Origin: an uncultured bacterium
GTDB lineage: Bacteria > Chlamydiota > Chlamydiia > Chlamydiales > JAJFMA01
NCBI GenBank assembly: GCA_964445105.1
Contig: CAYUJS010000002.1
Span: 18,123-82,122 of the forward strand
Direction: 5' to 3'
DNA: 64,000 nt
Within the stretch, counting starts at the first letter, position 1, and every line of letters begins with the position of its first letter. A model generated the notes under the pieces. The model had not been told where the DNA came from. It saw only the letters and a list, made by a program, of their open reading frames with translations, and made no database searches. Below are positions 4,088 through 61,577 of the stretch, piece after piece. A program made the translations under genes and the position numbers.

Positions 4088-5650
4088 CTACCAGCGCCTC
4101 CCCGACGCACCAACGACTAATTTTGTAAGATGGTTAGCAGAATAGGGAATAGGCAGCACCTCCACGTAGGTGATGCGCACACTACTGGGACTAGCACCTT
4201 GCTGGATCGCTTTATCAATAGCTTCCTGGCGCAATAAATCCAAGGCTTGCTGCCTTTCTGCCTGATTCACAACGCGGGTGCCAGTCGCACCAATCTCGGC
4301 CAGCGCAGCACCATACGCATTGGCTACCGAAGAAAAAGGCGCGAGCGAAAGACTCGTGGTGAACTCTTCCTGCAGCACGCGGCTCAATACTTCGGCGGCT
4401 CCGCCCACTAGTACGACGGAAGAGTCCTTCATCCCACGAGAAAGTTTTTGTATCTCCCAAGCTGCCTGGGTGCCTATGGAGCGCAGGATAGCACTCGCTT
4501 CAGATTGGCCAATTTTCACAAGCGAGGTTAGCCCTTCTGTGATCTCCATGTCGCCTAAGACGCACGCTAGATCGGTGAGTGTCAATTGTGGTCCACCAAA
4601 TACCTGCGAGAGTTCTGGCAAGCGCGAACCACAGCTAGCGGGACCGACCACCCAGTCCCCCTGCGATCCTTTATCAATATGTGTGCCCCCACCGATCGCT
4701 ATGGAACAGCTATCGGGCATGGCAAAGTTTAACGCCACACCCCCGACGGTAGTGGCTCGCAGCGAGCGGCGCACTAACCCATCTCGCACTACTCCTATAT
4801 CGGTGGAGGTACCTCCAACATCCACTACGATGGCGTTTTCAGTGGTAGCTAATTTTGAACCGCCTACGAAGGAGTTGGTGGGGCCGGCAGCGACAGTTTT
4901 TAGCGGATATCTCCCGGCCTCATCAACAGATAGCAGGGTACCGTCATTTTGGGTCATCCACACCTCTGCAGTCAACCCACAGGAATGCACCAACGAAGCG
5001 AGTCCCTTAAAGCTATGTCCAAGAAAGGGGATGAGCGCAGAGTTCAAAATAGCTGCTTTTTCCCGCTCCAATAAACCCATACCACCTATGGAAGAGGAGA
5101 GTGTATAAGGGAATTCGGGACCTAACAACTTTTCAATAAACTCGCCCACTGCCTGCTCTTGCTCTGGATAGATAGGGCTAAAAGACCCTACGATCGCCAG
5201 CGTTTGGGCGCCCATACTGAGTAGTTCATCCACCGCGCGCGCTGCTTCTCTGAGACTGAAGGGGCTCATCGGCCGACCGTCACATTCGAATCCTCCACCA
5301 ATGGCCCTACAGCTCACCACCACAGCTGCGCGCAAAGCTATGGGCCAATCGCAGGCGGATAAAGGTTTTGGCGATCGACACCCACACATGCGGATCACCC
5401 CGACTGTCGCCAGACGATTGCCCTCTAAAACAGCATTGGCTACTTGCGTAGTCCCAATGTGCACATGGTCAATCTCGGTAAATTCAGTGGGGTAGCGAGT
5501 GCGTAAAACGGCTAGACCCTGCGTAATTCCCATTTCGATGGGGGCCGTGGAATACGTTTTATAAGATCCGATCAATTTGCCGGATCCGTCCACGATAGCA
5601 AAGTCTGTGTTGGTGCCACCAACATCGATACCTAAACTGAGCTTCGACAT
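4088..5650 (-). CDS. hydantoinase/oxoprolinase-family protein (HyuA-like, ASKHA-fold ATPase), paralogue a
   Basis: Phosphate-binding motifs LGIDVGGTNTDFAIVD and VVDVGGTSTDIG are present. The start is taken at ATG 5650 (MSKLSLGIDVGG) rather than the track start 5731, by alignment with paralogue 8225-9778. Confidence 0.8.
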   Translation of the reverse strand: MSKLSLGIDVGGTNTDFAIVDGSGKLIGSYKTYSTAPIEMGITQGLAVLRTRYPTEFTEIDHVHIGTTQVANAVLEGNRLATVGVIRMCGCRSPKPLSACDWPIALRAAVVVSCRAIGGGFECDGRPMSPFSLREAARAVDELLSMGAQTLAIVGSFSPIYPEQEQAVGEFIEKLLGPEFPYTLSSSIGGMGLLEREKAAILNSALIPFLGHSFKGLASLVHSCGLTAEVWMTQNDGTLLSVDEAGRYPLKTVAAGPTNSFVGGSKLATTENAIVVDVGGTSTDIGVVRDGLVRRSLRATTVGGVALNFAMPDSCSIAIGGGTHIDKGSQGDWVVGPASCGSRLPELSQVFGGPQLTLTDLACVLGDMEITEGLTSLVKIGQSEASAILRSIGTQAAWEIQKLSRGMKDSSVVLVGGAAEVLSRVLQEEFTTSLSLAPFSSVANAYGAALAEIGATGTRVVNQAERQQALDLLRQEAIDKAIQQGASPSSVRITYVEVLPIPYSANHLTKLVVGASGRRW

Positions 5651-6753
5651 ACGCCCACCGCCTGTTGATAATCCCAAGAAAAACCGAAGGCCTTCGGACC
5701 AACGAGCTCTAAACCTTTCTCTGTCTTCCAAACGTCAGGCGCGGGCAAAGCGAGCACCTGAACCCTAAGGCCGTACCTTAAGCGCTCTACAGCGAGCGGC
5801 AGACCTGTTTCTGACTCAACTATGACAATGATATCTGGCGTACAAGCTAGCGGCAGGGAGCCGTCCTGCGGAATCACAGCCAAAAATTCATTTTGGAAGC
5901 ATACACTGAATTGCGTACCTTCTGCCACCACAACCGCCCGCCCATGCTGAAAAGCCGATTCGATCCAGTACTCCACGTCGCTGATATAGCCGGAGGCGAC
6001 CAAAGAACCGCCAAAAGTGGCTAAGACAGCTTCCGCTACATCTAGACCGCCTCCCAATGCCGTTTGCCAGCAGCGGCCTATCGCCAACGCGTGAGAAACT
6101 GAGCCGCGCAAGGCTGTTTTTTTGGCAACGGCCCCAGACATAGGGTGTGAGCAAACAGCCGCATCGGACCCCATCGCCGTCGTTAGAGTACGCAAAAGCC
6201 TTTCCATCTCGCTCGATGTTTCCGATTCCAAGATAACCGACGCGCCCGTGGCTGTAGCAACGATGACCCCAGGACCGGGTTTAAGACGATGTAAACCGCA
6301 GGTAGACATGTGACAAAAAGGGAAAGCCCGGCCCATGGTATCGCCATCGATCACTGGCAGCCCCAGCGCGCCAGCTGTATAGAACGGCGGCATGGCGTTA
6401 GACCCCCCTATTTCAGCGGACATCAGACCGACCACAGGAGCCCCGATTCTCTTCTGTAGTTCGTTCACAATAATGTGAAACTCCTCCCCAGAGTGAAGCT
6501 TCTCTAACAGTACCATAGGCGCGCCCATCCAGTAGATAGGCAGGATCCAGCCCTCATCAGGGATATCCTCCACGTCCATTAAACGCACGGGCCCATGCTG
6601 TCGCATATGCTCTTTTGCAACGAGCAGATCGTATCCCGGATCCCCACCGCCTCCGGAGCCTAGCACCTGGGCACCCAGAGCTAGTGTATCCATGTCATCT
6701 AGCGTAATCCAGACGTCTTTCACGATAAGCTCCAATAAATTCAAGACATGCAC
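5632..6753 (-). CDS. DUF917-family protein, paralogue b
   Basis: LGAQVLGSGGGGDPGYDLL aligns with paralogue a along its full length. The true start is uncertain: ATG 6753 overlaps the permease by 59 nt, and an in-frame GTG near 6714 fits the paralogue alignment better. The 3' end overlaps the HyuA-like start by 19 nt. Confidence 0.75.
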   Translation of the reverse strand: MHVLNLLELIVKDVWITLDDMDTLALGAQVLGSGGGGDPGYDLLVAKEHMRQHGPVRLMDVEDIPDEGWILPIYWMGAPMVLLEKLHSGEEFHIIVNELQKRIGAPVVGLMSAEIGGSNAMPPFYTAGALGLPVIDGDTMGRAFPFCHMSTCGLHRLKPGPGVIVATATGASVILESETSSEMERLLRTLTTAMGSDAAVCSHPMSGAVAKKTALRGSVSHALAIGRCWQTALGGGLDVAEAVLATFGGSLVASGYISDVEYWIESAFQHGRAVVVAEGTQFSVCFQNEFLAVIPQDGSLPLACTPDIIVIVESETGLPLAVERLRYGLRVQVLALPAPDVWKTEKGLELVGPKAFGFSWDYQQAVGVCRSSV

Positions 6754-8001: not shown

Positions 8002-8145
8002 CAGCAGCTCCTGCTAAAAAAAGGCTGACTCCGGGACGGCCATCAGCCTCATTTTGTTCCTCACCCGTAGTCGAGATTACGAATTTGTTGCAAACTAAGC
8101 CTGCTTTCAGTCCTCGCTGAGCCCATTTCTTTTTTTAGCGGGAAT
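8002..8145 (+). repeat. MITE/REP-like element, copy A
   Basis: The left end is CAGCAGCTCCTGCTAAAAAAAGG and the right end is CTTTTTTTAGCGGGAA. The core blocks AGCCTCATTTTGTTCCTCACCCGTAG, CGAATTT and CTAAGCCTGCTTTCAG are shared with the other copies. Confidence 0.75.
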
Positions 8146-8224: not shown

Positions 8225-9778
8225 TTACATCCACATTCTACCTCCAGAAGCACCTACAACCAATTTTGTTAAGTGATCTGCACTGTAAGGAATGGGGAGC
8301 ACCTCAATGCGCGTGACTCTAGTCTTATGCGGACACGCCCCCTGCTTGATCGCGCCAGCAACCGCCTCCTCTTGCATAGCTTGGAGCGCTACCTGCTTAT
8401 CAGCTAACTTAACCACGCGCACAGAAATAGCTCCTATTTCTGCTAAGGCAGCCCCGTAGGCGTTAGCTACAGCAGCAAAAGGGGCCGTGATGAGCTCTCG
8501 ATTGAACCGTTTCCGCATCACCTCATGCAGGATTGCTGTGCCGCCGCCCACCAAAATAACCGCACAATCTTTGCGGCCCCGAGCGAGTTTTTCGATTTCA
8601 TAAATGACTTTATCAGCGAGCGCCTGCAAGATCCTTTCCGCGTTTGCGCGGGAGGCAGTAACTCGGTCGACGCGCGCGCCAGATATATCTAACAGCCCTA
8701 GCAAACAGGCTAAGTCTGTCAATGTTTGCTGCTGACCCCCAAAAATTTGGGCGCTTTCTTTGAAACGATAGCCACAGCTCGCGCGGCCTACGGCGCCGTC
8801 CTCAACGATTGTGCCACCGCCAATAGCCAAAGAGCAGAGGTCGGGCATAGAAAAATTCAGCGCAATGCCGCCCAGGGTGGCCGCATGTAGCGATCTTCTT
8901 ACGAACCCTCCCTCCACTAAACCGATATCGGTAGATGTACCCCCCACATCGACCACCACCGCTTGCGAAGTAGTGGCAAGCTTGGATCCGCCAATGAAAG
9001 AATTTGTGGGCCCCGCTGCGACAGTTTTAAGGGGTAAGATACCTGCTTCTGCCACAGAAAGCAGCGTGCCGTCATTCTGGGTCATCCAAACCTCTGCTTG
9101 AATTCCGCATGCTTGGACGAGCGAGGCCAGGTTTTTGAAACTTTCCCCCAAAAGCGGGATGAGAGCAGAATTTAGGATCGCCGCATTTTCTCGCTCGAGC
9201 AGCCCCAGGCTGCCAATTGCATGGGACAATGTATAGGGAAAGCGAGGACCTAGTAGCTTCTCGATACGAGCTCCCACTTCAAGCTCCTGCGACGGGTAAA
9301 GAGGACTAAAAGAACCCACCACAGCCAAAGCCTGAGCTCCTTGGCATAAAAGTGCCTTAATGGCCTCTTCGGTCTCATTAATTGAGAAAAGGCTCATGGG
9401 CCTACCATCGCACTCGAAGCCACCCCCAATAGCGCAAAAACCGTTCACTACTGCCGCGCGTATCGGAGCAGGCCAATTACTTGTCGGAAGCGGCTTCGGG
9501 GCGCGACAGCCACATAGACGAATGATGCCCACGCGCGCTAACCTCGTGCCCTCTAGTACCGCGTTGGTGGCCTGAGTAGTGCCTATATTTACATGTTGGA
9601 TCAGGCAATACTCATTGGGGTACTTTTCCTTGAGCTGTGCTAATCCCCTTGCCAGACCCTCTTCGATTGGCTGTGAGGTGGGCGTTTTTATGTAACCCAG
9701 AAGCATACCATGACAATCGACGATGGCAAAGTCGGTGTTTGTCCCTCCAACATCAATGCCTAAAGTAAGCGTTTTCAC
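8225..9778 (-). CDS. hydantoinase/oxoprolinase-family protein (HyuA-like), paralogue b
   Basis: 517 aa, MKTLTLGIDVGGTNTDFAIVD ... VVDVGGTSTDIG. It is collinear with 4088-5650, and more than half of positions are identical by eye. Confidence 0.8.
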   Translation of the reverse strand: MKTLTLGIDVGGTNTDFAIVDCHGMLLGYIKTPTSQPIEEGLARGLAQLKEKYPNEYCLIQHVNIGTTQATNAVLEGTRLARVGIIRLCGCRAPKPLPTSNWPAPIRAAVVNGFCAIGGGFECDGRPMSLFSINETEEAIKALLCQGAQALAVVGSFSPLYPSQELEVGARIEKLLGPRFPYTLSHAIGSLGLLERENAAILNSALIPLLGESFKNLASLVQACGIQAEVWMTQNDGTLLSVAEAGILPLKTVAAGPTNSFIGGSKLATTSQAVVVDVGGTSTDIGLVEGGFVRRSLHAATLGGIALNFSMPDLCSLAIGGGTIVEDGAVGRASCGYRFKESAQIFGGQQQTLTDLACLLGLLDISGARVDRVTASRANAERILQALADKVIYEIEKLARGRKDCAVILVGGGTAILHEVMRKRFNRELITAPFAAVANAYGAALAEIGAISVRVVKLADKQVALQAMQEEAVAGAIKQGACPHKTRVTRIEVLPIPYSADHLTKLVVGASGGRMWM

Positions 9779-9866: not shown

Positions 9867-9977
9867 CAGCAGTTCCCGCTAAAAAAAGATGAATTCACAA
9901 CCTCGTCTAAACATGAAAGAGCAAAACGAGGCTGAGAGCCGTCTTTGAGCCAGCCGGCTTCGTTTTTTTTAGCGGAG
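9867..9977 (-). repeat. MITE/REP-like element, copy B (core inverted relative to copy A)
   Basis: The ends are CAGCAGTTCCCGCTAAAAAAAG ... CGTTTTTTTTAGCGGAG. The reverse complement contains CAGCCTCGTTTTGCTC and GTGAATTCA core blocks. Confidence 0.7.
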
Positions 9978-10094
9978 ATTAATACCTCCGCACGGGCGCA
10001 GGAAATCAGTAAAATTTTTTGATCAAACTGGAAGAGCTCTTAAAATGCTCTTGCGTAAAGTGCTTTAGCGCACTGACAGGAGACTTGAAAGCAA

Positions 10095-10157
10095 GGCATT
10101 ATCAACCGGTCTAAAATGACAGTTTGTGCGCCCCACATCAATGCCTAAAAAGAGTGT
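10095..10157 (-). pseudogene. remnant of the 5' end of a further HyuA-like gene
   Basis: The minus-strand translation TLFLGIDVGRTNCHFRPVDNA compares with LTLGIDVGGTNTDFAIVD of the intact paralogues. It shares a 15-nt exact match (ACATCAATGCCTAAA) with the 5' end of 8225-9778. No start codon and no continuation are present. Confidence 0.45.
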
Positions 10158-10578
10158 CCTCGCAGCTTTTTCTCCAGGACTTCGGATGGCCAGCCAAAGC
10201 TGACCAGCCGACGAAGCCAACTAACGTTCTTTTTTAAACAGATGACGGCAGCAAGAAAAGAGACAAGTGAGGCCCAGGGAGCTAGGTTTAAAGGTGACGT
10301 GCCACCTCTCGCCAACATCTCGCTGAAGCTGCGCTCCTGCAATAGCTGCTTTTCCTAGAAAGAGGATGCCAACATTTTAGCAACCTTTAGCCTGTCCTGG
10401 CGGTTATCCATTTTGATACTTCCCTACGTGAGTTTATATAAGAATCTAGGAGCCTGCCTCTTTGTTTATTGCTGTCAACGCCCAAGCGTGCTTTCGTGAA
10501 CTTTTGAACACTTCCCTTTAAACCCTGCCGCCCCTACAATTTGCATTTTACAGATCGACCTCTCCAGAAGGAACCACC

Positions 10579-11323: not shown

Positions 11324-13015
11324 ATGTTATTCTGGAAGAGAACAGGACCCTCCAAAAAATCCACCAAAAGATCACTGGTGCGCTATTTTACCGAAGTCGC
11401 CTTAGCTATCGCCGTCGCACTGAGCATCGCCACCGTAATCAGGCAGATGTGGTTTGAGCCTTACAAGATCCCCAGCGGGTCTATGCGGCCCACCTTCCGC
11501 GAACAGGACCATCTTTTGGTCTCTAAAACCGCTTTTTCACTTAATATACCGTTACAAACAAAACATTTTCTCTTCGAACCTGAGAACGTTAAACGCGGCG
11601 GAGTAGTCGTTTGGACGGGAGACAACGTAGACCTGCCGGACACAGACGCTACCTATTTCTGGCTTTTCCCCGGCAAAAAACGCTACATCAAACGATTGAT
11701 GGGTAAGCCAGGAGACTCGCTCTATTTTTACGGGGGAAAAGTTTATGGGATCGATAAAGAGGGCAACGACATCAGTCCAGAATACCAGGCCTCTTACTTC
11801 CAAGGCCTAGAATACATCCCTTTTCTCAACTTCCGTGGACGCGATGTTATTTCCAAAATGGAAAATACACAGCTCACACAGGTGCATTTTAAGCAGATGA
11901 ACCAGGCTTTAGGCCGCCTCACCTTTTTAGGTCCTCAGCCTCTCAAGGGAGAGGTTTTTAACGGTCAAGATTGGGTTAAAGATGACCCGGCCGCACAAAA
12001 AAAATCACACGACACCATCAAGACCTATAGCGATTTTTTCGGCATCCGCAATTTCGCCATGGCGCGCCTACTCACAAAAGAACAGCTCAAATCCCTGCTC
12101 AATATCGATCCAGCTACCCTCGACGAAGGTTTACTCTACCTAGAGCTTATGCACGCCCCCAGCCTCTCATATCCTAGGCCGACCACCCACAACCAGCTGG
12201 TCGGCACACAGTCTTCCGTGATTTCTCTACAGTGCGAGCACCTCAACGCTCTCATGGATACGCTGTACACAGATCGTTTCATCGTCAAAGACGGGCGAGC
12301 GACCTCCTACCGCGGTGAGGACCAGACTCCCTTAAAGTACCGCCCCCCTTTTAGTGACGTCCCCGACGGCACGTACGAGTTCTACTATGGCAAAGGCTAC
12401 GAAGTAGACTCCACAGGCTGGCTGAGAGTCCTCCCTGCTGATCATCCCCTTTACAGTCATGCACTAGACAATATTCAGAGACTGTTTAACTATGGCATCG
12501 AGCCCCATCTCGCCTTCGAACCCCGCCTAGGAAACGCCCTGTTTCCCAATAGATATGCCTACTTTCGCGAAGGAAGCCTGCATCTAATGGGCGGGCCTGT
12601 ATTCCTCAATGGCGACCCCTTGCTTGCAAACTTTGTCAAAAAAGAGCTCGACAAGCAAGCAAACTCCTCGGATAGCGCCCCTTACATCGCTTTCCATGAT
12701 TTCGGACCGCCTTTGCAAGCAGATGGCTCCATCGACCAGCAGTTCCTACGCACGTTTGGGGTCCAACTGCCCGAAGGCCACTACCTTGTACTTGGGGACA
12801 ACCATGCTGTGAGCCAAGACAGCCGCTATTTTGGCTTTCTCCCCGCTGACAATCTGCAAGGTGAACCACTCTTCATCTTTTGGCCGCCAGGGAACCGCTG
12901 GGGTTTCCCCTCGCAAGCAGAGTACCCCTGGATCACCACGCCCAGCGTGATCGCCTGGTCTATCGCGCTGCTTGCGTGGCTCATCAATACCCTCTACCGC
13001 CGCCGCCAAGCCTAG
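11324..13015 (+). CDS. lepB: signal peptidase I (long chlamydial-type)
   Basis: The catalytic Ser box IPSGSMRPTF, the Lys box YIKRLMGKPGD and the GDNHAVSQDSRYFG box are present. There is a TM segment at each end, and AGGAG lies 5 nt upstream of the ATG. Confidence 0.9.
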   Translation: MLFWKRTGPSKKSTKRSLVRYFTEVALAIAVALSIATVIRQMWFEPYKIPSGSMRPTFREQDHLLVSKTAFSLNIPLQTKHFLFEPENVKRGGVVVWTGDNVDLPDTDATYFWLFPGKKRYIKRLMGKPGDSLYFYGGKVYGIDKEGNDISPEYQASYFQGLEYIPFLNFRGRDVISKMENTQLTQVHFKQMNQALGRLTFLGPQPLKGEVFNGQDWVKDDPAAQKKSHDTIKTYSDFFGIRNFAMARLLTKEQLKSLLNIDPATLDEGLLYLELMHAPSLSYPRPTTHNQLVGTQSSVISLQCEHLNALMDTLYTDRFIVKDGRATSYRGEDQTPLKYRPPFSDVPDGTYEFYYGKGYEVDSTGWLRVLPADHPLYSHALDNIQRLFNYGIEPHLAFEPRLGNALFPNRYAYFREGSLHLMGGPVFLNGDPLLANFVKKELDKQANSSDSAPYIAFHDFGPPLQADGSIDQQFLRTFGVQLPEGHYLVLGDNHAVSQDSRYFGFLPADNLQGEPLFIFWPPGNRWGFPSQAEYPWITTPSVIAWSIALLAWLINTLYRRRQA

Positions 13016-13676: not shown

Positions 13677-16600
13677 CTACTTCTCCACTTTGGCAATGCT
13701 GATTAACGCCTTTTCTCCGTTAAGCTCCCATTGTGTCCCCTGTCCAACTGGACTAAAGGCTACAGAAAGAGCCAATACTTCATTTAGAATGTAGTCGCCA
13801 TGTAAAACAAAGCACTGCTGCACCCGCGCAGAAGTATCCATTGCCAGGTGAATCCGATCCGCCACATCTAGCGACGCATCCCTACGCATCGTGTTTACCT
13901 TATTGACAACCTCGCGCGCCAAACCCTCCATCAACAATTCATCGGTCAAGGTGGTATCTAAAGCAATAGTGATCGTGCCCAGGTTCGCTGCCACTAGGCC
14001 CTCGCGTACGCTACGGTGCAGCTCGATATCTTCGGGCCCTAGTACAATAGACTCTCCCTCTACTTCGATGCTCGTAGACCCTTCCCGATGCAGCTGCAGC
14101 AGCTCAGCTTTGGTAAACTGTCCGACAAGCAGCTGTATAGCTGGCATACGCTTGCCTACTTTTCTGCCAAGCGTGCGAAAGTTCGCTTTTGCCTTTAACT
14201 GCACAAACTGCTGCTCGTCCGAACTAAACTCGATTTTTTTTACATTCAGCTCGTCTGCAATCAGTTGTGCGTGCTCCTGAAGAAGCGCTAATTCCTCCGC
14301 ATCGCCGGTCGCTAAATAGGCGGTAGGGAGGGGCTGACGCACTTTTAACTTCTGTTCCTTGCGCAAAGAATGTCCTAGGCTGACCGTGGTTTGCACCGCA
14401 GCCATCGCCTTTTCTAAAGCCAGGTCGCGCGCTGACTCTTGATAGCTCGGGTAATCACAGAGGTGCACCGATTCTGGCATTCCCTCTGTACGCAAGTTAC
14501 GATAAATTACCTCTGTGATGAACGGCACAAAAGGCGCGGCTAGCTTTGTAAACTGCAACAGCACCTCATACAAAGTCGCAAAGGCTTCCAAACAGGCAGG
14601 TGAGCTGTCACCCTCCCAAAAACGACGACGCGAACGACGAATGTACCAATTGGTCAATTGCTCGACAAAGCCTACCAAGGGCTCTACGGCTGCACTCAGA
14701 TCATAGGCATCCATGCCTAGTTCAACCTCATGAATGAGCTTATGCAATACTGACAGGATCCAACGGTCAATCTCTTCGACCGGCTTCTCATTTACTGGCG
14801 ACGGCTTCCAGTTATAAACACGCGCATAGGTAACAAAAAAAGTATAAGCATTCCATAAGGGGATCAAAATCTGCCGCAAGACTAGCTCCACTCTTCTTTC
14901 GGAAAAACAGAGGTCGTCCGCACGCACTGCCGGGCTGTGTAGCATGTAAAGGCGGATTGCATCCGCCCCATACTTCGCTACCACCTCCATCGGATCGGGA
15001 TAGTTCCGCAAACGTTTTGACATCTTTACACCGGACTCTGTCAAAATTAAACCGTTCACAATCACGTTTTTGAACGCCATGGAGTCAAATAAAACGGTCG
15101 AAAGGATCGTGAGCGTGTAAAACCAACCGCGTGTCTGGTCCAATCCTTCAGCGATGAAATCTGCCGGGTGCCCTCGGTCGAAGGCCTCTTTACTTTCAAA
15201 CGGATAGTGGTTTTGCGCGTAGGGCATTGAACCGGCATCAAACCAACAATCAAATACCTCGGGAACACGCTTGAAGGTCTTACCATTTTTGGTAAAGGTC
15301 AGCTGATCTACAAAATGTCGATGCAAATCGTCGAGTTTGGTGCCGCTCAGTTCTTCTAACTCGCGACGACTCCCCACCACGTGTAATTCGCCGTCAGAAG
15401 AGCGCCAGATAGGGATAGGCGTGCCCCAATAGCGGTTGCGACTAATCGCCCAATCGCGCGCTCCCGCCAGCCAATTACCGAAACGGCCCTCTTTCAGATG
15501 GGCAGGCGTCCAATGAATATCCCGATTGATTTCTACCATCCGTTCCTTAATCTTCTCGACTGCTACAAACCAGGTCTGTACGGCTTTATAAATAAGTGGT
15601 GTTTCCGAGCGCGGACAGAAGGGATAGCGGTGGCGAATCGTTCCCTGATGGAAGAGAAGCCCAGCATCCTTCAAACGCCTCGCGATCTGCTTGTCTGCAT
15701 CCTTAACAAACAGCCCCTGATACTCAGGAATTTCTTCCGTGAATTGGCCATTGCTATCCACTGGACAAACAAGCTCAATCCCCTCTCGCTTGCAGGCATA
15801 AAAATCTACCTCGCCAAAAGCCGGCGCCGCATGCACAATGCCCGTTCCCTCTTGCAAAGTCACCGACTCTTCAGCGATGACCCGAAATGCGCCCTGGCGC
15901 AAAGCAAAGTAGGGCAAGAGAGGCTGATAGCGCCTCCCCACCAGTACACGCCCTGTAAATCGCTCCACTACGGTGTGGTTCTGTTCGTCAGCAAAATAGT
16001 TGGCCGCGCGAGCTGCGCCCAACACATAATTTCGACCATCTATGCGGTTATATATTTTAACATAATCGGCTTCTGGATGTACCATGAGGGCTAAATTTGA
16101 AATCAGTGTCCAAGGGGTCGTCGTCCAAGCCAGCAACACTGTATTTGGATCGTCTGCCAAAGGAAAATTCACAACCAAAGACGGATCGTCGACATCTTTG
16201 TAGTTTTCACCTGCTTCAAAGTTGGAGAGGGGAGTACCCAGCTTAGCCGAGAACGGCATCACCTTAAATCCCTCATAAACTAGACCCTTATCATACACCT
16301 GCTTAAAAGCCCACCATACAGACTCCATGAAGTTTGGATCCATGGTTCGATAGGTTTGCTTAAAATCCACCCAACGGCCCATGCGTTCTACTGTTCCACG
16401 CCACTCTTGCGTATAGCGCAACACAATGCTCCGGCAGGCCTCGTTGAACTTGTCTATCCCGAAGGCCTCAATACTCTTAGCACCAGACAGCTGGTACTGT
16501 TTTTCGATTTCGCTCTCTACCGGTAATCCATGACAGTCCCAGCCAAAGCGCCGAGGCACATAAAAACCTTTCATAGCTTTATAGCGCGGCACCACATCTT

Positions 16601-16865: not shown

Positions 16866-17008
16866 AGAACAAAGAGCAGCGGCTCCCGCTAAAAGTAGAA
16901 ACCGTCTCTGTTTCCGACGAATTCGTAGCCGGATGCTACGGGTGACAAGCAAAATAAGGCTAATGGCCACCCCGGAGCCAGTCGGTTCCCTTTTTTAGAA
17001 CAAAGAGC
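16866..17008 (-). repeat. MITE/REP-like element, copy C (inverted core), bracketed by a 12-bp direct repeat
   Basis: CAGCGGCTCCCGCTAAAAG sits at 16877 and a degenerate opposite end CCCTTTTTTAG near 16988. The reverse complement carries GGCCATTAGCCTTATTTTGCTTGTCACCCGTAG and TACGAATTCG. AGAACAAAGAGC occurs at both 16866-16877 and 16997-17008. Confidence 0.7.
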
Positions 17009-17967: not shown

Positions 17968-18351
17968 TTAATGCCTCGCCCCGCCTTTGCGCAACTCACG
18001 ATAGCCTTCCCAATAGTAGCAGTGTTTTTTGGCCCAGTTGCGATACACCTTACGTAAGCACGGGCTAGGACTGCAACACGCACAGTGCAGACAGTGGCTA
18101 GTCCCGCAGTGTGCGCACTCGTGGTAGGAATAGGCGCACTTGTGGCAGTAGTTCTCGTTACACTGCTGCTGAAAACAGGTTTGACCGGTGCAAACGCAAT
18201 CGTTACAATAAAAAACACTACAGAGCAGACGCACCGGTCCTACGGGCACAGCTTCAACGCATGTCTCTGCACCAGCCACCGAGGTTGAGCTCAGACAAAC
18301 CGTTGCTAGAAAAGCGGCTAAAACGATAATGTATTTAGTCAGCGACACCAC
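17968..18351 (-). CDS. small Cys/His-rich secreted protein
   Basis: 127 aa with the signal-like N-terminus MVSLTKYIIVLAAFLATVCLSSTSVAGA. About 17 Cys and many His follow in roughly 100 residues (CNDCVCTGQTCFQQQCNENYCHKCAYSYHECAHCGTSHCLHCACC). Confidence 0.6.
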   Translation of the reverse strand: MVSLTKYIIVLAAFLATVCLSSTSVAGAETCVEAVPVGPVRLLCSVFYCNDCVCTGQTCFQQQCNENYCHKCAYSYHECAHCGTSHCLHCACCSPSPCLRKVYRNWAKKHCYYWEGYRELRKGGARH

Positions 18352-18422
18352 TCAAATCCATGTTATAAATTTCTATGTAGCCAAACCTCGCCACTAGGTC
18401 AATATAAAAAAAGAACAAAAGG

Positions 18423-18944
18423 ATGGCCTCTATGACGCGCCCAGGTAAAACAGTCGCCGAAACAGCTGTAACCGATCATACCTACAAGGTATTTCCCAAC
18501 GACCTAAACTCTCACGGAACTGTTTTTGGAGGCATGGTCATGTCCCAGGCAGACCGCGTTGCTAACGTCGTTGCTGAACGGCACAGCGAGCGACTTTGTG
18601 TCACGGCTTCTGTCGATTCGATGCATTTTCTCGCGCCCGCGCGCAGAGGCGAAACGCTCGTCTTCATGGCCTGCGTGAACCGCGCTTGGCGTAGCTCGAT
18701 GGAGGTCGGTGTTAAGGTCGTTTCAGAAAACTACCGCACAGGTAACCGCGCGCACATACTTAGCGCCTACTTCACCTTCGTGGCCGTAGACGATGAGCAC
18801 CAGCCGTGCGATTGCGCCCCCGTCATCCCCCAATCTCCTATTGAAAAACGCCGTTTCGAAGAGGCTGGCGAACGCCGCAGGCAACGTCAAGAAGAAGCCG
18901 CGCAGCGCCGGGCCCGCCGCCAGCAGGAACCTCTTCAGTCGTAA
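18423..18944 (+). CDS. acyl-CoA thioesterase (hotdog fold, YciA/BFIT-like)
   Basis: VFPNDLNSHGTVFGGMVMSQADRVA is typical of this family. The protein has a C-terminal Arg/Gln/Glu-rich tail. Confidence 0.8.
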   Translation: MASMTRPGKTVAETAVTDHTYKVFPNDLNSHGTVFGGMVMSQADRVANVVAERHSERLCVTASVDSMHFLAPARRGETLVFMACVNRAWRSSMEVGVKVVSENYRTGNRAHILSAYFTFVAVDDEHQPCDCAPVIPQSPIEKRRFEEAGERRRQRQEEAAQRRARRQQEPLQS

Positions 18945-18954
18945 ATTAAGCCTA

Positions 18955-19986
18955 TCAATAACTCGTTGACTCTAATTTTACCTTACCTCGGAAGATCCAG
19001 TAAATCCCCAGCGTGTAGGAAATAACCAGCGGTACACCTATAAACGCCATTAACAATAAAATTTTCAGAGTCATCTCGGAAGATGAGCTATTATAAATCG
19101 TTAAACTCAGATGCTCAGGATCGTTGATCGCGCGCAGCACCGTCGGGTACATTCCCACTGCAAATAGAGAGAAGAGGAAAACCATCGAAAAGCAAGAAGA
19201 GATAAACGCCCTACCGTCGCGACCTGACTGGAGTTCCCTAGGAATATTAGCAATAGCAAACATGTTTGCCACGGCCAGCAAAAAGAAAACAGGCCTCTCT
19301 TGGATAGCTCTCGTCATGTGAGGCTGATAAATCAAAGTCGCCATCGTCGCCAAAACGTAAGTGATTATAAAGAAAACGATCGCAGGGTTAATCCAGCGAC
19401 GTGCGCGCTCGTTTAGCTCGCCCTCCGTTTTCATGGCCACATAGATCGCCCCGTGCATCATAAAGAGAGCCACTGTCATCACGCCAATCAGCAGAGCATA
19501 CGGATGCACAAGCTGCGCAAACGTGCCTGCAAACTCTTGCTCGGCGTTAAGTGGAACCCCACGGATAATGTTGCCCATGATCAGACCAAGATCGAGCGCG
19601 ATCACATAACTCGCCACGCTGAACGCTCGGTCCCAACCGCTTCTCCACCATTTCTGCGCCTGTTTACTGCGAAACTCAATGGCTACCGCACGAAAAATAA
19701 TACCCGCCAAAAGAATCATCACAGGAATGTAAAAGCCTGAGCAAAAAGTCGCGTAGATGGCGGGAAAACCAGCAAATAGAGCGCCGCCCGCGGTGACTAA
19801 CCACACCTCATTTCCATCCCAAACAGGGCCGATCGAGTTCAGCATCAGGCGGCGCTCCTGGTCCGTTTCAGCCAGTAAATGCAACTGCCCGACGCCCAGG
19901 TCAAACCCATCCAAGACAGCGTAACCCGTCAGCAAAATCACAACGATCGAAAACCAAATAAATTGTAAGTCGGATAGAAGATCCAT
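18955..19986 (-). CDS. cydB: cytochrome bd ubiquinol oxidase subunit II
   Basis: 343 aa polytopic membrane protein that begins 6 nt after the cydA stop. The N-terminus LQFIWFSIVVILLTGYAVLDGFDLGVG is CydB-like. Confidence 0.9.
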   Translation of the reverse strand: MDLLSDLQFIWFSIVVILLTGYAVLDGFDLGVGQLHLLAETDQERRLMLNSIGPVWDGNEVWLVTAGGALFAGFPAIYATFCSGFYIPVMILLAGIIFRAVAIEFRSKQAQKWWRSGWDRAFSVASYVIALDLGLIMGNIIRGVPLNAEQEFAGTFAQLVHPYALLIGVMTVALFMMHGAIYVAMKTEGELNERARRWINPAIVFFIITYVLATMATLIYQPHMTRAIQERPVFFLLAVANMFAIANIPRELQSGRDGRAFISSCFSMVFLFSLFAVGMYPTVLRAINDPEHLSLTIYNSSSSEMTLKILLLMAFIGVPLVISYTLGIYWIFRGKVKLESTSY

Positions 19987-19991
19987 ATCAC

Positions 19992-26924: not shown

Positions 26925-27034
26925 GCCTTTCGTGCTTGTCAGCGAGCTACAGCCAGATTTGTTCCGTCAACTGGCCTTCTGTCTTGCTGTCAGCCATCTT
27001 TGAGCCTGTTTCTTTTTTTAGTGGGAGCTGCTAG
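26925..27034 (+). repeat. MITE/REP-like element, copy D (left terminus missing)
   Basis: The right end is TTTCTTTTTTTAGTGGGAGCTGCTAG. The core blocks AGCCTTTCGTGCTTGTCAGC, CAGATTTGTT and CTTGCTGTCAGCC are alignable to copies A and E. The left boundary is approximate. Confidence 0.6.
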
Positions 27035-29463: not shown

Positions 29464-30185
29464 ATGGGCGTTAAATCAGTCTGCAATGCAAGCCATATGG
29501 AAATGTGCTATTTTTGTCAGCCTCCCAGCATCTATCCAAGCACCATTCCGCGCCGCCAAGTTCTTCTGCTGAGCAGCAAGACTTGCTATCTCGTGAGGCT
29601 CGGCAATTGAGACGAACAGTCTTTCTGCTTCAAGCAGTTGACTATGTTTTTAATCCAAGAAATCACTTGACATCCAGCCCAAAATCGCCGAAGTCCACAC
29701 GCACAGAACCGATTTATGTCCAAGGCTTGCGCAATTAAGTTATTGTCTTTGGCCAAGCGCATATTCAGATCAGTATCTTTAACAAAAGTAAATCCTAGCT
29801 GCTCATCTCCCCTCTACTCCTCATAGTAGCCATGCAATCCGCCGTTGAAACGCACCCTTCATGAGACTGTTTGCAAGCACTGATTGGTCTCGTTACCTAA
29901 AGAACTGGTATCTTGTTTCCGTTCTTCAACGCGACATGGAAGAACTTATCTTGAGGGGCACGAGATTTTTGGCCCGGCTCTAAAACGACATAATTCACCT
30001 CATAGGAATCCAAAGGGTGGCTTACATAAAACTCGAATTGTTGTTTTATGGGATCCCTATTCGCTCTATAACCTGGTATTAGGCCCGTGGAGAAGGCGAT
30101 CCTCCTCCTGTTTTATTAACTCTTCAATAAAACGTGCATCCGACTGCTGATCCTCTGGGCTCATGGCGTCCTCTAGATAACGCAC

Positions 30186-30458: not shown

Positions 30459-30812
30459 AATTTCTTCAATAACAAGTTTATCTGAAAAGGAGGCGAATTC
30501 ATCGGTTAGCCTCAGCCTTATAATAGCATAAGGGCTATAAAATAGAATCTTTCTTTATGCTTATAGCGCATTGAAATGCACATAAAATATGCCATATTTA
30601 CATATATTTTTGTCTGATCGGCGGAAACTTCCGCTGCTTTTTTAGAAGACCTGAGGGATGGCTTGCCTAGCAAATCCAACGCGGTCGGCAAACCTACTGG
30701 CGGGCCTAATTTTTAAACGAACAAACAGCAAACGCCCCAGCTAGTCCCACGCGCTAGAGTTAGGTATAAAAAGGTGGACATTTTAGCTTTCTTTCGGTGT
30801 ATAATCTCCCGT

Positions 30813-33800: not shown

Positions 33801-36530
33801 GGCTCGGGGAAAACTAGTCTGGCCTTTGATACGGTCTATGCAGAAGGACAACGGCGTTACATTGAATCGCTCTCCCCTTACGCACGCCAGTTCGTCAAGC
33901 AGATGCCTAAGCCAAAAGTAAGCCAAATAGAGGGTCTTTCTCCCGCCATCGCCATTGAGCAGAAAACCCATGCGGGAAATCCACGTAGTACTGTGGGTAC
34001 AATGACCGAAGTTTACGACTACCTCCGGCTTCTCTTCGCTCGTCTTGGCGTGGCGCACTGCCCCGAAACAGGTGAAGTCATCAAAGCCATCAGCAAAGAG
34101 CATATCGTAGATCGCGCCCTGGCTCTTCCCAAAGGTGAAAAACTTCACTTCCTAGCGGCGCTCGAAGTGCGCAAAAATGAGTCTTTTACCGATGTCATCC
34201 AACGCTACCAGCGTCAAGGATTTCTGCGCATACGCCTCAACGGCCAATTCTACGACATCGACCAGCAAGAGCTGCCGTTCGATCGTAGAAAAAAGAACGA
34301 ACTCTTCCTTGTGGTTGACCGCCTCAAAGTGGAAGATGCCGCCAAAATGCGTCTTCTAGAAGCAGTGGAAAACGCTTCACACATCGGTGGCGGTAAACTA
34401 ACTATCCAACGCGAAAAAGGTCCCGATCTCTTCTTTAACCTCACTTTCGCTGTCGAAAGCACTGGCAGATCCTATCCCGAAATCACGCCTCATACCTTCT
34501 CTTTTAATACGCCAGAGGGGATGTGTTCTGATTGCGAAGGGCTCGGATTTCAATATGGAGCCAACCTTAGCCACAATCTAACCATCATGCATTGTTCCGT
34601 CAACGAACTTCTGCATTTGCTCTGCAAACAACGCCTCACCGGCCCCGCATTTGACTTCGCACGCGCTATTTTCAATCAGGAAGGCATACATCTCTATCTG
34701 CCCCTAAAAATGATCCCCGCGCAGCACCTTAACTTCGTACTGAACGGCTCACCAACGGGAAAATGGTATACCTTAGGCAACGGCCTTAAACTCCAGTGGC
34801 AAGGCATCAACCAAGTGCTAGCCAAAGTGGCTAAAAGCGCCAAAAAAGAGCTCAAAGAGCAGGTCATTCCAATGCTCGATGAGCATGAGTGTCCGATCTG
34901 CCATGGGTCACGCCTCAATGCCTTAGCACGTGCAGTCACCATTAACGGTGCCAGCCTAGCTGATGTGTGCCAATGGCCTCTGGAACGCTCTCTGGAGTTT
35001 ATCTCTCAGATTCCTATACCACCGGCCGAAGGCAAGGTTCTGCAAGAAGTCAAACAACAGCTACTCAATCGACTAGGTTTCTTGGACGAAGTGGGGCTCT
35101 CTTACTTAGCTCTAAACCGTCGTGCACCTACCTTGAGCGGGGGCGAATCACAACGCATCCGGCTCGCCCGGCAGCTCGGTAGCGGCCTGACAGGGGTATT
35201 ATACGTGCTCGACGAACCGACAATTGGTCTTCACCCACGCGATAACCACCGCCTCAACCAAGCGTTAAGCCGTCTACAGAAACTCGGCAACACGCTTCTC
35301 ATGGTTGAGCATGACCCCATGACCGTCCAGACCGCCGATTATCTCCTTGATTTTGGGCCCCAATCGGGCAGGCACGGCGGCCATATCACTGCGAGAGGTA
35401 CGCTCAAGCAGGTACAACTAAACGAGAACTCGTTAACCGGTGCCTATCTGTCAGGTAGACGAGCCATCTCCTGCCCCGCCAAACGCCGCGCACCTACCAA
35501 GGCAAAAATCACCGTGCAAAACGCCTGTAAGCACAATCTAAAAGCCCTTAACGTGCAAATTCCCCTCAGTTTAATGGTCGCCTTTACAGGTGTCTCTGGC
35601 TCAGGGAAATCTACGTTGCTGCACCAAGTCCTCTTACCAGCTTGCGAGCGCCACGTGGGCCAGGCAGGTCCCATTACCATTGAAGGCGCTAAAATAACTG
35701 GCCTACAGCACGTCACGAAGGTGGTGGCTGTCGACCAGAATCCAATTGGGCGCACAAGCCGCTCCGACATAGCCACCTACACGGATGTGCTGACACCGCT
35801 ACGCAATCTGTTTGCCTTGCTACCGGCAGCCAAAATCAAAGGCCTGCAGGCCAAACACTTCAGCTATAACCACCGCAAAGGCATGTGCAGCGCTTGCTGG
35901 GGGCTGGGCTACCGCAGGGTAGAGATGCATTTTCTACCCGACGTAAGGGTGGTATGCCACGAATGCCACGGCCTGCGCCTCAATCCCCTTAGCCTGGAAG
36001 TCTGCTATCAGGAAAAAAACCTAGGGCAATGGCTGGAATGCACCGTAGAGGAGCTAGCGGTGCACTTCGCCCACCACCGCGCACTCAAGCGTCTGCTGGA
36101 TACGCTCATCTCGGTAGGGCTCGGCTATCTTAAGTTAAATCAAGAGATGGTTAGCTTGTCCGGTGGAGAAGCTCAGCGCATCAAACTCAGCCGGGATCTG
36201 GCAAAACGCTCCGCGGGTCCAACCCTGTACCTGCTGGACGAGCCCAGCACAGGTTTACACAGCGAAGATATCCAAAAACTTCTACTCGTCTTGCACCGCT
36301 TAGTCGACCAAGGACACTCCGTCATCTACATCGAGCACCAGGCCGACATGATTCTCAATGCCGACCACGTCATCGACCTGGGACCCGATGCAGGGGACAA
36401 GGGTGGGGAAATCGTCTTCCAAGGCACGCCAGAGGAGCTAGTAAAATGCAAAGAGTCCCTCACAGGAAAATTTCTGACGCACGCAGCAGCGGCTCCTGCT
36501 AAAAAAAGAGGCCGTGCCAGCGAGGGCTGA
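30813..36530 (+). CDS. uvrA: excinuclease ABC subunit A, tandemly duplicated (two complete UvrA modules in one polypeptide)
   Basis: The start is taken at ATG 30813 ([20 protein letters not shown]). Module 1 runs to about nt 33650 and module 2 starts about 33708 ([19 protein letters not shown]). Each module has two Walker A boxes (GVSGSGKSS x2; GPSGSGKTS and GVSGSGKST), two LSGGE(A/S)QR signatures, two (I/V/L)LDEP(S/T) Walker B boxes and Cys-rich zinc modules. Confidence 0.97.
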
Positions 36531-36550
36531 CAGCAGCCTTTGCTTACGGA
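36484..36550 (+). repeat. MITE/REP-like element, copy F (right half missing), overlapping the uvrA 3' end
   Basis: CAGCAGCGGCTCCTGCTAAAAAAAG is followed by GGCTGAC and CAGCAGCCTTTGCTTACGG, which align with copy A. The uvrA stop TGA (36528-36530) lies inside the repeat block GGCTGAC. Confidence 0.6.
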
Positions 36551-61337: not shown

Positions 61338-61420
61338 AATGCAAACATCCTTTCGTTAGCATAAAGACGGATATGAGCCTACATGAATAGTCGTTTTATG
61401 GACACCAGATCCTAACGTTC

Positions 61421-61577
61421 GAGCTGCTGCGCAGTCCTCAATGGCTCCCGCTAGAAAAAAGAAACCGAAGCCTCGTTTTGTTCCTCAGCCGTATTCAAGA
61501 GCGCGAATTCGTCGCAGGCTAAGCCCGCTGTCAGACCTTGCTGGGCCGGTTTCTTTTTATGGCTCCAGCAACTGCTC
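61421..61577 (+). repeat. MITE/REP-like element, copy E
   Basis: GGCTCCCGCTAGAAAAAAGAAACC ... GGTTTCTTTTTATGGCTCC, with outer GAGCTGCTG / CAACTGCTC. The core AGCCTCGTTTTGTTCCTCAGCCGTA, GCGAATTCG and CTAAGCCCGCTGTCAG aligns with copy A. Confidence 0.75.

What the first reader, a model, noticed from the sequence alone, without database searches (positions are those of the whole stretch)
8002..8145. Dispersed MITE/REP-like repeat family with A-run terminal inverted repeats: at least six copies in 64 kb
Six short segments share one architecture. Outer inverted repeats of the type CAGCRGCTCCYGCTAAAAAAAG ... CTTTTTTTAGCGGGAGCTGCTG enclose a 70-110 nt core. The core has conserved blocks: AGCCTCRTTTTGYTC..CACCCGTA, CGAATT and CTAAGCCYGCTKTCAG.

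The copies are:
- A, 8002-8145
- B, 9867-9977 (core inverted)
- C, 16866-17008 (core inverted)
- D, about 26925-27034 (left end lost)
- F, 36484-36550 (right half lost)
- E, 61421-61577

The copies are too short to encode a protein and carry no conserved ORF. They occur in both orientations and in different states of decay. All lie between genes or at the very edge of one. This is the behaviour of a non-autonomous transposable element or a REP-like structured repeat.

Each copy can form a long imperfect hairpin ending in a U-run on either strand. Copies could therefore also act as bidirectional terminators or RNA-stability elements. I cannot match the element to any repeat family I know.
Basis: seen in the sequence. 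Interest (0 to 1): 0.78.

Follow-up and report, generated by a model that had tools for sequence, protein, structure and literature searches.

The report
Decayed MITE-like repeat in a chlamydia
Six short non-coding copies of one inverted-repeat element lie between genes in 64 kb of an uncultured chlamydia-related bacterium; they look like worn-out miniature transposons, which is ordinary for bacteria, though this particular family matched nothing in the libraries I could search.

Summary
The window has four full copies (A, B, C, E; 112-143 nt) and two solo arms (D, F) of one repeat family, and no others. The similarity survives masking of the A/T runs. Independent read-set assemblies reproduce the D and E copies at 100% identity.

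The unit is a 22-nt end, CAGCRGYTCCYGCTAAAAAAAG, then a roughly 30-nt subterminal arm, a roughly 45-nt core, and the inverse arm and end.

It encodes no conserved ORF. It matches no Rfam family and nothing in the plasmid, phage or viral sets. It is absent from 89 kb around uvrA in four related chlamydiae, including the orthologous D and F sites of the closest relative.

The same 22-nt end occurs in two unrelated metagenome contigs, once around a different core. That suggests an end recognised by a protein.

My best reading is an old, decayed MITE-like element (confidence 0.6). Some ends carry a weak hairpin plus T-run that could terminate transcription.

Not shown: a fixed target duplication, a parent transposase, or the genome-wide copy number. 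My one genome-collection scan was wasted on a pattern that was too loose.

It is a new member of a known kind and of low to moderate interest.

The parts
8002..8144 (+). Copy A, the most complete (143 nt). Complete left end at 8002-8023 (CAGCAGCTCCTGCTAAAAAAAG). Then the subterminal arm, the core (AGCCTCATTTTGTTCCTCACCCGTAG...CGAATTT) and the right arm. The right end at 8129-8144 is truncated (CTTTTTTTAGCGGGAA).
   Evidence: D2, D5, D6, I1; I8: 15 nt, 93%. It lies between the hydantoinase stop (8225) and the permease start (7927).
9867..9978 (-). Copy B, in the opposite orientation. Complete end at 9867-9888. The arm next to that end is deleted. The other end is truncated (…TTTTTTTTAGCGGAGA).
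   Evidence: (E = 1e-27). The hairpin GAGCCAGCCGGCTT plus T8 at 9947-9960 is flagged as terminator-like. The copy sits 89 nt upstream of the hydantoinase start (9778).
16877..16996 (-). Copy C, in the opposite orientation. Complete end at 16877-16898 (A-run interrupted: AAAAGTAG). The other end stops at the T-run. An exact 12-nt direct repeat, AGAACAAAGAGC, brackets the copy at 16866-16877 and 16997-17008.
   Evidence: (E = 5e-37). A terminator-like hairpin plus T6 lies at 16974-16989. The copy sits 84 nt upstream of the ileS start (16793).
26985..27034 (+). Copy D, a solo right-hand arm plus end (…CTTTTTTTAGTGGGAGCTGCTAG). Sequence to its left back to about 26948 may be a degenerate core.
   Evidence: D5 81% to A; I2 75% to F; z = 13 against A. 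It lies 38 nt past the pyruvate kinase stop (27072). The orthologous spot in relative L126 lacks it.
36484..36545 (+). Copy F, a solo left-hand end plus arm. It overlaps the last 15 codons of the fused double uvrA (stop at 36528-36530) and supplies most of the tail …[17 protein letters not shown].
   Evidence: (D6, I1, I2). Homology to the relative's uvrA stops at about 36477. Thirty homologues end 0-17 residues after the conserved TGK(Y/F)L motif with unrelated sequence.
61439..61576 (+). Copy E. Both ends have diverged (CAATGGCTCCCGCTAGAAAAAAG … CTTTTTATGGCTCCAGCAACTG). The left subterminal arm is deleted. The core and right arm are 79% identical to A.
   Evidence: D2; E = 6e-30. It lies between the divergent starts of orf224 (61337) and rpsO (61653). 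It is present and identical in three independent Logan assemblies.
61420..61430 (+). CGAGCTGCTGC, which looks like the outer part of another right-hand end. It sits 8 nt to the left of copy E, so it may be the remnant of an adjacent insertion.
   Evidence: Read. The 9-mer GAGCTGCTG equals the canonical outer end. The tail-to-head geometry matches L122:3134-3190. This is inference.

Best explanation
These are relics of a non-autonomous DNA transposon (a MITE-like element of about 145 nt) that spread in this chlamydial lineage after it split from its nearest sequenced relative.

The mobile unit is a 22-nt terminal inverted repeat, CAGCRGYTCCYGCTAAAAAAAG, followed by a roughly 30-nt subterminal inverted arm on each side of a roughly 45-nt core. 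A transposase encoded elsewhere, and not identified, would recognise the ends and move the unit.

The copies here are old. They are 75-80% alike, carry internal deletions, include two solo arms, and have one damaged end in each full copy. They are probably no longer mobile.

Where they sit, they are mostly tolerated spacer just upstream of promoters or just past stop codons. One copy has rewritten the last codons of uvrA. As a side effect, the hairpin next to the T-run at some ends may weakly terminate transcripts leaving the element.

Shown: the family, its anatomy, its absence from relatives, and the shared end in other organisms. Inferred: transposition, the trans-acting transposase, and any terminator activity.
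For: - **Real family with TIR architecture.** It passes statistical tests. Five ends carry the full 22-nt motif.
- **Non-coding.** No frame is conserved between copies. A protein search with the translated copies found nothing.
- **No match to known families.** Rfam gave nothing at gathering or relaxed thresholds. The four full copies share almost no consensus RNA structure.
- **Location and orientation.** Both orientations occur, always between genes or at a gene edge.
- **Gain, not ancestry.**
  - The closest relative (uvrA 81% amino-acid identity) is syntenic around pyruvate kinase and uvrA.
  - It has no copy at the D or F sites or anywhere in 22 kb.
  - Three further relatives have none in 67 kb.
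  - The window has one copy per 10.7 kb.
- **The end is conserved independently of the core.**
  - L124 (41% GC) has CAGCAGTTCCCGCTAAAAAAAG … TTTAGCGGGAACTGCTG around an unrelated 100-nt core.
  - L122 (37% GC) has two such ends tail to head.
  - A protein-recognised terminus would explain this.
- **Decay pattern.** Internal deletions and solo arms are typical of old MITE families.
- **Size and TIR length fit.** The published range for prokaryotic MITEs is 50-800 bp with TIRs of at least 10-15 bp (PMC11602168). Repeat elements extending the 3' ends of genes are a known effect (PMC3184786).
Against: - **No consistent target-site duplication.** C has an exact 12-nt flanking repeat. A and B have only weak ones of 6-9 nt. 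E's 8-mer is explained by a near-palindromic end. Lengths of 6-12 nt do not fit one transposase with a fixed stagger, and 12 exceeds the usual 2-10 bp.
- **No parent element.**
  - No transposase was seen among the 10 ORFs next to the copies that I scanned against Pfam; the rest of the window was not annotated.
  - No full-length element with these ends was found.
  - The IS-like genes next to the L122 and L124 hairpins have their own, different ends.
- **No polymorphism data.** Every available assembly of this organism is identical.
- **Copy number outside the 64 kb is unknown.** Only six copies are known.
- **One damaged end per full copy.** Every full copy has one truncated or diverged end, so none is demonstrably transposition-competent.
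Confidence: 0.6

Rival explanations
1. A selected structural repeat rather than a selfish one. This would be a dispersed terminator or RNA-stability module, comparable to the pneumococcal SPRITE element or to REP/BIME units. In that case the A-run, inner hairpin and T-run are the functional part, and copies persist because they punctuate transcription units.
For: - The layout 'outer arm, A7, inner hairpins, T7, outer arm' places a hairpin directly before a T-run when read outward.
- The scan flags this at B (9947-9960) and C (16974-16989).
- A's left end, read outward, gives GGCTGA…TCAGCC plus T7.
- F is oriented so that the convergent gene at 36565-37329 reads out through hairpin plus T7.
- An unrelated palindromic element in the closest relative has the same layout: arm, A5, hairpin, T7, arm, just past uvrA.
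- SPRITE is a precedent for a terminator-like dispersed repeat (PMC3184786).
Against: - Terminator-like hits in the scanned region are no more frequent than in shuffles (16 found against 11.5 ± 3.6).
- The hairpins at several ends (both of E, A right, C left, B left) look weak or absent when read by eye.
- Folding z-scores are modest, and the consensus structure of the four full copies is about -2 kcal/mol.
- D is oriented so that the pyruvate kinase transcript enters through the end and meets no T-run after a hairpin.
- B, C and E lie upstream of genes, not after them.
- This reading does not explain why the outer GC-rich 14 nt are the best conserved part, nor why they recur in other organisms with another core.
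Confidence: 0.15
2. A mobile element that moves by something other than cut-and-paste or copy-paste DDE transposition. Candidates are one-ended or replicative insertion, or template switching at a hairpin. Such a mechanism would leave one exact end, one variably truncated end, and flanking repeats of variable length.
For: - In A, B and C one end is the full 22-mer. The other is cut at a different point in each: after AGCGGGAA, after AGCGGAG, and directly after the T-run.
- The truncated end is directly abutted by a repeat of the opposite flank. The repeat is 12/12 in C, 8/9 with a gap in A, and 6/7 in B (coordinates in notebook entry 3).
Against: - Only the repeat at C is statistically solid (about 1e-5 by my estimate). 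Those at A and B are near chance level.
- The truncated end is on the S1' side in A but on the S1 side in B and C. It therefore does not track the internal polarity of the element, as 5'-truncation or rolling-circle models require.
- There are only three cases.
Confidence: 0.08
3. Binding sites for a host DNA-binding protein (regulator, nucleoid protein or promoter UP-like element) that recur upstream of genes. In this case the repeat is a regulatory cassette.
For: The complete end of A, B and C lies 75, 89 and 84 nt upstream of the next start codon. E's two ends lie 84 and 76 nt from two divergent starts.
Against: - The neighbouring genes have unrelated functions: a permease, a hydantoinase, ileS, rpsO and an unknown ORF.
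- No conserved promoter spacing or shared motif follows the ends.
- D and F lie at 3' ends of genes.
- A constant distance is also what purifying selection would leave, since insertions are tolerated only just outside the promoter.
- The relatives regulate the same genes without the element.
Confidence: 0.05

Closest known systems
Correia repeat-enclosed elements of Neisseria (MITE, about 104-157 bp)
   Same: - Same size class and terminal inverted repeats of about 22-26 nt.
- Full-length and internally deleted forms.
- Intergenic, close to promoters and gene ends, in both orientations.
- Known to affect neighbouring transcription (PMC3184786).
   Different: - No sequence similarity.
- No TA duplication at the ends.
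- Different phylum.
- Promoter, IHF-site and RNase III functions were not tested here.
- Hundreds of Correia copies per genome are documented; only six copies are known here.
[quoted passage not shown]
   Same: A dispersed, non-coding repeat of about 100 nt. Its predicted structure contains a hairpin followed by a T-run, and it is found near gene ends (PMC3184786).
   Different: - Here the terminator-like modules sit inside a pair of GC-rich outer inverted repeats and face outward on both sides.
- They are weak at several ends.
- No sequence similarity.
Rickettsia palindromic elements (RPE, about 105-146 bp) in another obligate intracellular lineage
   Same: Palindromic repeats of the same size in a host-associated bacterium, some of them fused to protein-coding genes (PMC3184786). 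Copy F likewise supplies the C-terminal residues of UvrA.
   Different: RPEs are typically inserted in frame inside genes and conserve a reading frame. Here five of six copies are intergenic, and no frame is conserved.
REP/BIME elements with RAYT transposases
   Same: Intergenic, palindromic, dispersed, and proposed to act in termination or mRNA stability (PMC3733652, PMC2817692).
   Different: - REPs are single stem-loops of 20-40 nt with a GTAG or CGTC tag at one end.
- This unit is 110-145 nt, its arms are about 100 nt apart, and its ends carry no such tag.
- No Y1 transposase was seen among the 10 window ORFs I scanned.
ERIC, RUP and Nezha (other bacterial MITE families of 107-170 bp)
   Same: General architecture and size. 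Nezha was shown to be mobile by comparing filled and empty sites between related species (PMC3184786), which is the kind of comparison attempted here with L126.
   Different: - No sequence similarity.
- For those families a parent IS or a fixed target duplication is known.
- Here neither was found.

Membership tests
Bacterial MITE | Small (50-800 bp) with no coding capacity (PMC11602168) | tested here: met
   Units are 112-143 nt. Six-frame translations share no open frame. A protein search with the translations found nothing.
Bacterial MITE | Terminal inverted repeats of at least 10-15 bp | tested here: met
   The 22-nt end motif is present in full at five ends. Within copy A the two ends pair over 15 nt at 93%. 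The arms extend to about 50 nt at 75% between copies (I1 and I2).
Bacterial MITE | Flanking target-site duplication of fixed length (usually 2-10 bp) | tested here: inconclusive
   C has an exact 12-nt flanking repeat. A and B have weak ones of 6-9 nt. E's repeat is explained by the near-palindromic end. No common length and no TA. Four copies are too few.
Bacterial MITE | Many dispersed copies in the genome | tested here: inconclusive
   Six copies in 64 kb at unrelated loci.
Bacterial MITE | A related autonomous IS or transposase with the same ends | tested here: not met
   None among the 10 window ORFs next to the copies (Pfam). The IS-like units beside the L122 and L124 hairpins have different ends. 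Genome-wide, this could not be tested.
Bacterial MITE | Filled versus empty sites between related genomes | tested here: inconclusive
   The D and F sites are unoccupied by this family in L126. That relative is about 28% diverged in coding DNA, and both sites hold other palindromes, so no clean empty site can be drawn. Assemblies of the same strain are identical.
REP/BIME | Single imperfect palindrome of 20-40 nt | tested here: not met
   The unit is 112-143 nt, with ends 74-105 nt apart.
REP/BIME | GTAG or CGTC tag at one end of the palindrome (PMC3733652) | tested here: not met
   Ends read CAGCRG…. A CCGTAG occurs only inside the core of A and C.
REP/BIME | RAYT (Y1) transposase in the genome | not testable with these tools
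   None among the 10 window ORFs scanned against Pfam. The genome was not available.
Correia element | TA target duplication and sequence homology to the 26-bp Neisseria repeat | tested here: not met
   Flanks are TT, TA, AG and CG at the complete ends. The lack of sequence relation is judged from memory of the Correia sequence; no library of it was available.
Rickettsia palindromic element | In-frame insertion within protein genes with a conserved reading frame | tested here: not met
   Only F touches a gene, at its last 15 codons. Frames differ between copies.
Bidirectional intrinsic terminator | A-tract, compact GC-rich stem-loop, T-tract | tested here: inconclusive
   The A7 and T7 runs are present but 74-105 nt apart. 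A compact hairpin directly before the T-run is flagged at B and C and read by eye at A's left end. Other ends look weak. No RNA data.
Integron attC site | R''/R' core sites (RYYYAAC … GTTRRRY) downstream of cassettes, with an integrase nearby | tested here: not met
   The ends lack these cores. The copies are not in a cassette array. No integrase among the 10 ORFs scanned.
Any Rfam family | Covariance-model match | tested here: not met
   Only tRNA-Cys reaches the gathering score in the window. Relaxed searches of A and E gave nothing better than E = 2.4.

The most novel reading that the evidence does not exclude
The 22-nt end CAGCRGYTCCYGCTAAAAAAAG defines a wider superfamily of hairpin elements carried by several uncultured bacteria of different GC content, each with its own core. 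In this reading the elements are moved by a transposase that no current profile library recognises, or by a mechanism that leaves one exact end, one truncated end and target repeats of variable length. In this chlamydia the copies would have been kept as promoter-proximal insulators or terminators at a fixed distance of about 75-90 nt from start codons.
Probability: 0.1. Interest if true: 0.55.

Novelty: new member of a known kind. Interest (0 to 1): 0.3.

Why it matters
Small inverted-repeat elements are a routine part of bacterial intergenic DNA, so the existence of one more family is not surprising.

Its value is local.
- It marks recent genome turnover in an uncultured, environmental member of the Chlamydiota. 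My library searches turned up no paper describing MITE-type repeats in chlamydiae, and a 2024 survey of prokaryotic MITEs does not mention them.
- It explains an odd C-terminal tail on the fused UvrA.
- It is a ready marker for binning contigs, for typing strains, and for spotting annotation errors such as spurious small ORFs and extended gene ends.

The closest relative has other, much better preserved palindromic elements at the same intergenic spots. That suggests this clade is a good place to study how hairpin elements colonise and replace one another in compact genomes.

Tried and rejected
1. **Genome-collection scan with RYTCCYGCTAAAAAAAGR.** The pattern was too loose. This cost the chance to count copies genome-wide.
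2. **Metagenome scan with the 22-mer.** Five hits. Three are coding sequence for …AAPAKK… and are chance. Two (L122, L124) share the end but not the core.
3. **Viral-contig scans with the core and end patterns.** Chance matches only.
4. **Protein search with translated copies, to find ORFs called over other copies.** Nothing.
5. **Link between the L124 hairpin and the adjacent two-ORF, IS-like unit.**
   - That unit has no Pfam or NCBIfam match.
   - Its homologues all sit on contigs of 13 kb or less, most of them 1-6 kb.
   - The L127 homologue lacks the hairpin, so the hairpin is a neighbour and not an end.
   - The same holds for the IS in L122, which has its own ends, AGTGCCYGRCAGAAAACC.
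6. **Walking beyond the window with exact-protein look-ups.** Only 1.3 kb was gained, with no new copy. All contigs are the same strain.
7. **Small protein or toxin-antitoxin reading.** Rejected because no frame or peptide is conserved.
8. **Structured small-RNA reading.** Rejected for lack of any Rfam match, orientation bias or consensus structure.
9. **attC, REP and RPE memberships.** Rejected on their defining features (see the membership table).
10. **Plasmid and phage BLAST of copy A.** No match.

Full report
**What is there**

A repeat search links them independently:
- A and E share 95 nt at 79%.
- The end motif CAGCRGCTCCYGCTAAAAAAAG recurs at 8002, 9867, 16877 and 36487.
- The right arms of A and D are the reverse complement of the left arm of F over 48-52 nt at 75%.

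A nucleotide profile built from the four full copies recovers them at E = 1e-27 to 1e-38. It also finds F and D, which were not in the model, at 1e-4 and 5e-3. Nothing else in the window scores below E about 0.1. The 18-nt end pattern occurs four times against zero in 100 shuffles.

With every A or T run of five or more masked, the pairs give:

| Pair | E-value |
|---|---|
| A-E | 7e-16 |
| A-C | 8e-9 |
| A-B | 2e-3 |
| A-F | 1e-2 |

Only D loses support. With the runs left in, the arms of D and F align to the other copies at z = 7-13 above shuffles.

Contigs assembled independently from three sequencing runs are 100% identical to the window across D and E. The repeats are therefore not an assembly artefact.

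**Anatomy**

Aligning the copies and anchoring every end on its A-run gives a modular unit:
- an outer 14-nt GC-rich end plus an A-run, together CAGCRGYTCCYGCTAAAAAAAG;
- a subterminal arm of about 30 nt (…AAACCGGCTGGCTCAAAGACGGCYNTCAGCC);
- a core of about 45 nt (TCRTTTTGYTCCTCACCCGTAG…CGAATTCGTCG);
- then the inverse arm and the inverse end.

The state of each copy:

| Copy | State |
|---|---|
| A | Nearly complete (143 nt) |
| E | Left arm lost |
| B | One arm lost |
| C | Most of one arm lost |
| D, F | One end plus arm only |

B and C are simply in the opposite orientation to A and E.

In A, B and C only one end carries the full motif. The other is cut after AGCGGGAA (A), after AGCGGAG (B), or directly after the T-run (C). 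The copies are 75-80% alike, so the family is old.

No reading frame is conserved.

RNA folds use the A-run/T-run stem, but they are only z = +0.1 to -4.0 against shuffles. The four full copies share almost no consensus structure (-2 kcal/mol).

**Context**

The window is 50.8% GC. It encodes a fused double UvrA of 1918 residues, isoleucyl-tRNA synthetase, pyruvate kinase, S15 and hydantoinase paralogues. The best UvrA relatives are labelled Parachlamydiaceae, Chlamydiales or Chlamydiia. S15 clusters with Parachlamydiaceae, Waddliaceae and Protochlamydia proteins. The organism is therefore an uncultured member of the Chlamydiota.

All copies lie between genes except F, which covers the last 15 codons of uvrA.
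- Homology with the closest relative's uvrA ends at about 36477.
- The window protein then continues as …[22 protein letters not shown], which is the element's end read in frame.
- The relative ends …TGKFL-KER.
- Thirty homologues have unrelated tails of 0-17 residues.

The complete ends of A, B and C lie 75, 89 and 84 nt upstream of the next start codon. E's ends lie 84 and 76 nt from two divergent starts. No shared promoter motif follows them. I read this as insertions surviving only just outside promoters. The sample is too small to say more.

**Relatives**

The closest genome available (uvrA 81% amino-acid identity, 48% GC) is syntenic around pyruvate kinase and uvrA. It has no copy of this family in 22 kb. 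Three more distant chlamydiae have none in 67 kb, and none of the four loci has the end motif even with five mismatches allowed.

The closest relative does carry at least ten other long palindromes. The five longest have arms of 62-92 nt at 83-99% complementarity. One lies just past pyruvate kinase and one just past uvrA, the spots where the window has D and F.

One of these elements has the same layout (arm, A5, hairpin, T7, arm) but a different sequence. Hairpin elements are therefore common and turn over quickly in this clade.

**The end motif elsewhere**

A scan of the metagenome collection with the 22-mer gave five hits. Three are coding sequence and are chance.

In L124 (41% GC), CAGCAGTTCCCGCTAAAAAAAG is matched 100 nt away by TTTAGCGGGAACTGCTG, around an unrelated GC-rich core.

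In L122 (37% GC), a right-type end and a left-type end sit tail to head, 8 nt apart.

An end conserved across organisms while the core changes is what a transposase-recognised terminus would give.

Both contigs also carry IS-like genes. Those have their own different ends, or their homologues lack the hairpin. No parent element was identified.

**Known families**

Searches that found no match:
- Rfam at gathering or relaxed thresholds;
- 7.3 Gb of plasmids and 2.3 Gb of phages;
- viral contigs.

ISfinder and Dfam could not be consulted.

My searches of the paper library turned up no paper describing MITE-type repeats in chlamydiae. A 2024 survey of MITEs across 183,232 prokaryotic genomes does not mention them.

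The size, the terminal repeats, the deleted variants and the 3' extension of a gene all have precedents in Correia, RUP, ERIC, Nezha, SPRITE and RPE elements (PMC3184786; PMC11602168).

**Mechanism**

I commit to a decayed MITE-like transposon relic (0.6).

The evidence is indirect:
- the architecture;
- dispersal to unrelated loci;
- gain relative to the nearest relatives;
- the portable end.

The gaps are real:
- Flanking repeats are inconsistent. Only C's exact 12-mer, AGAACAAAGAGC at 16866-16877 and 16997-17008, is beyond chance, by my estimate about 1e-5.
- No transposase is known.
- No polymorphism could be examined.

The terminator idea is a plausible side effect rather than the reason the family exists. 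The scan flags a compact hairpin directly before the T-run at B and C, and A's left end shows one when read by eye. Such hits are no more frequent than in shuffles, and several ends lack them.

The pattern of one exact end, one truncated end and an abutting flank repeat in A, B and C is unexplained. It keeps open a non-canonical insertion mechanism (0.08).

**Verdict**

This is a new member of a known kind, of low to moderate interest.

The decisive test is a profile search of the whole genome.

Noticed in passing
window 30774-36530: uvrA is a fused double gene of 1918 residues, with two UvrA_inter regions and four ATPase sites. This matches what I recall of chlamydial UvrA. Its last 17 residues after the conserved TGKFL motif come mostly from repeat copy F.
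   Followed up: partly
L126:1712-1883, 4331-4657, 12310-12790, 15317-15943 (closest relative, ENA ERZ25039476 contig_54958): There are at least ten long palindromic elements in 22 kb; the five longest have arms of 62-92 nt at 83-99% complementarity. One is built of ATGGAC repeats with a period of 10-12 nt, and others are nested. Two occupy the spots where the window has copies D and F. All are unrelated in sequence to the window family.
   Followed up: partly
L124:1107-1230 and L122:3134-3190 (metagenome contigs, 41% and 37% GC): Both carry the same 22-nt end motif as the window family. In L124 it flanks a different 100-nt GC-rich core. In L122 two ends sit tail to head, 8 nt apart. The owner organisms were not identified.
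   Followed up: partly
L124:1-950 (minus strand) and L127:812-2070: This is a two-ORF unit: a roughly 100-residue coiled-coil protein, then an A9G slippery-looking run, then a protein of at least 290 residues with D…D motifs. It has no Pfam or NCBIfam match. All 38 homologues sit on contigs of 13 kb or less, most of them 1-6 kb. It looks like an undescribed insertion sequence family.
   Followed up: partly
window 10065-10220 (minus strand), especially 10122-10174: This is a fragment resembling the N-terminus (…GIDVG…) of the hydantoinase paralogues at 4088-5731 and 8225-9778. It is probably a pseudogene remnant and lies just beyond copy B.
   Followed up: no
window 29685-29870: A 186-nt stretch is 73% identical to the FGE-sulfatase gene that the relative L126 has upstream of uvrA. 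The window has no intact gene there, so this is probably a pseudogene remnant.
   Followed up: no
window 58279-58530: A tandem duplication of 126 nt (two copies, 90% identical) lies inside the 617-residue ORF at 57244-59097. That amounts to a 42-residue repeat in the protein.
   Followed up: no
window 40851-42529: About 1.7 kb has no ORF of 80 residues or more and no Rfam match at gathering thresholds. It may be a decayed gene region.
   Followed up: no
window 17978-21362 versus L126:12791-20670: The cytochrome bd oxidase and thioesterase block lies next to uvrA in the relative but about 10 kb away and inverted in the window. A rearrangement separates the two genomes, and repeat copies lie near its edges.
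   Followed up: no
L122:739-2788: A roughly 2-kb insertion sequence has ends AGTGCCYGRCAGAAAACC and two ORFs (133 and 353 residues) with DDE-like motifs (PTD…DKGY…E). It has no Pfam match.
   Followed up: partly
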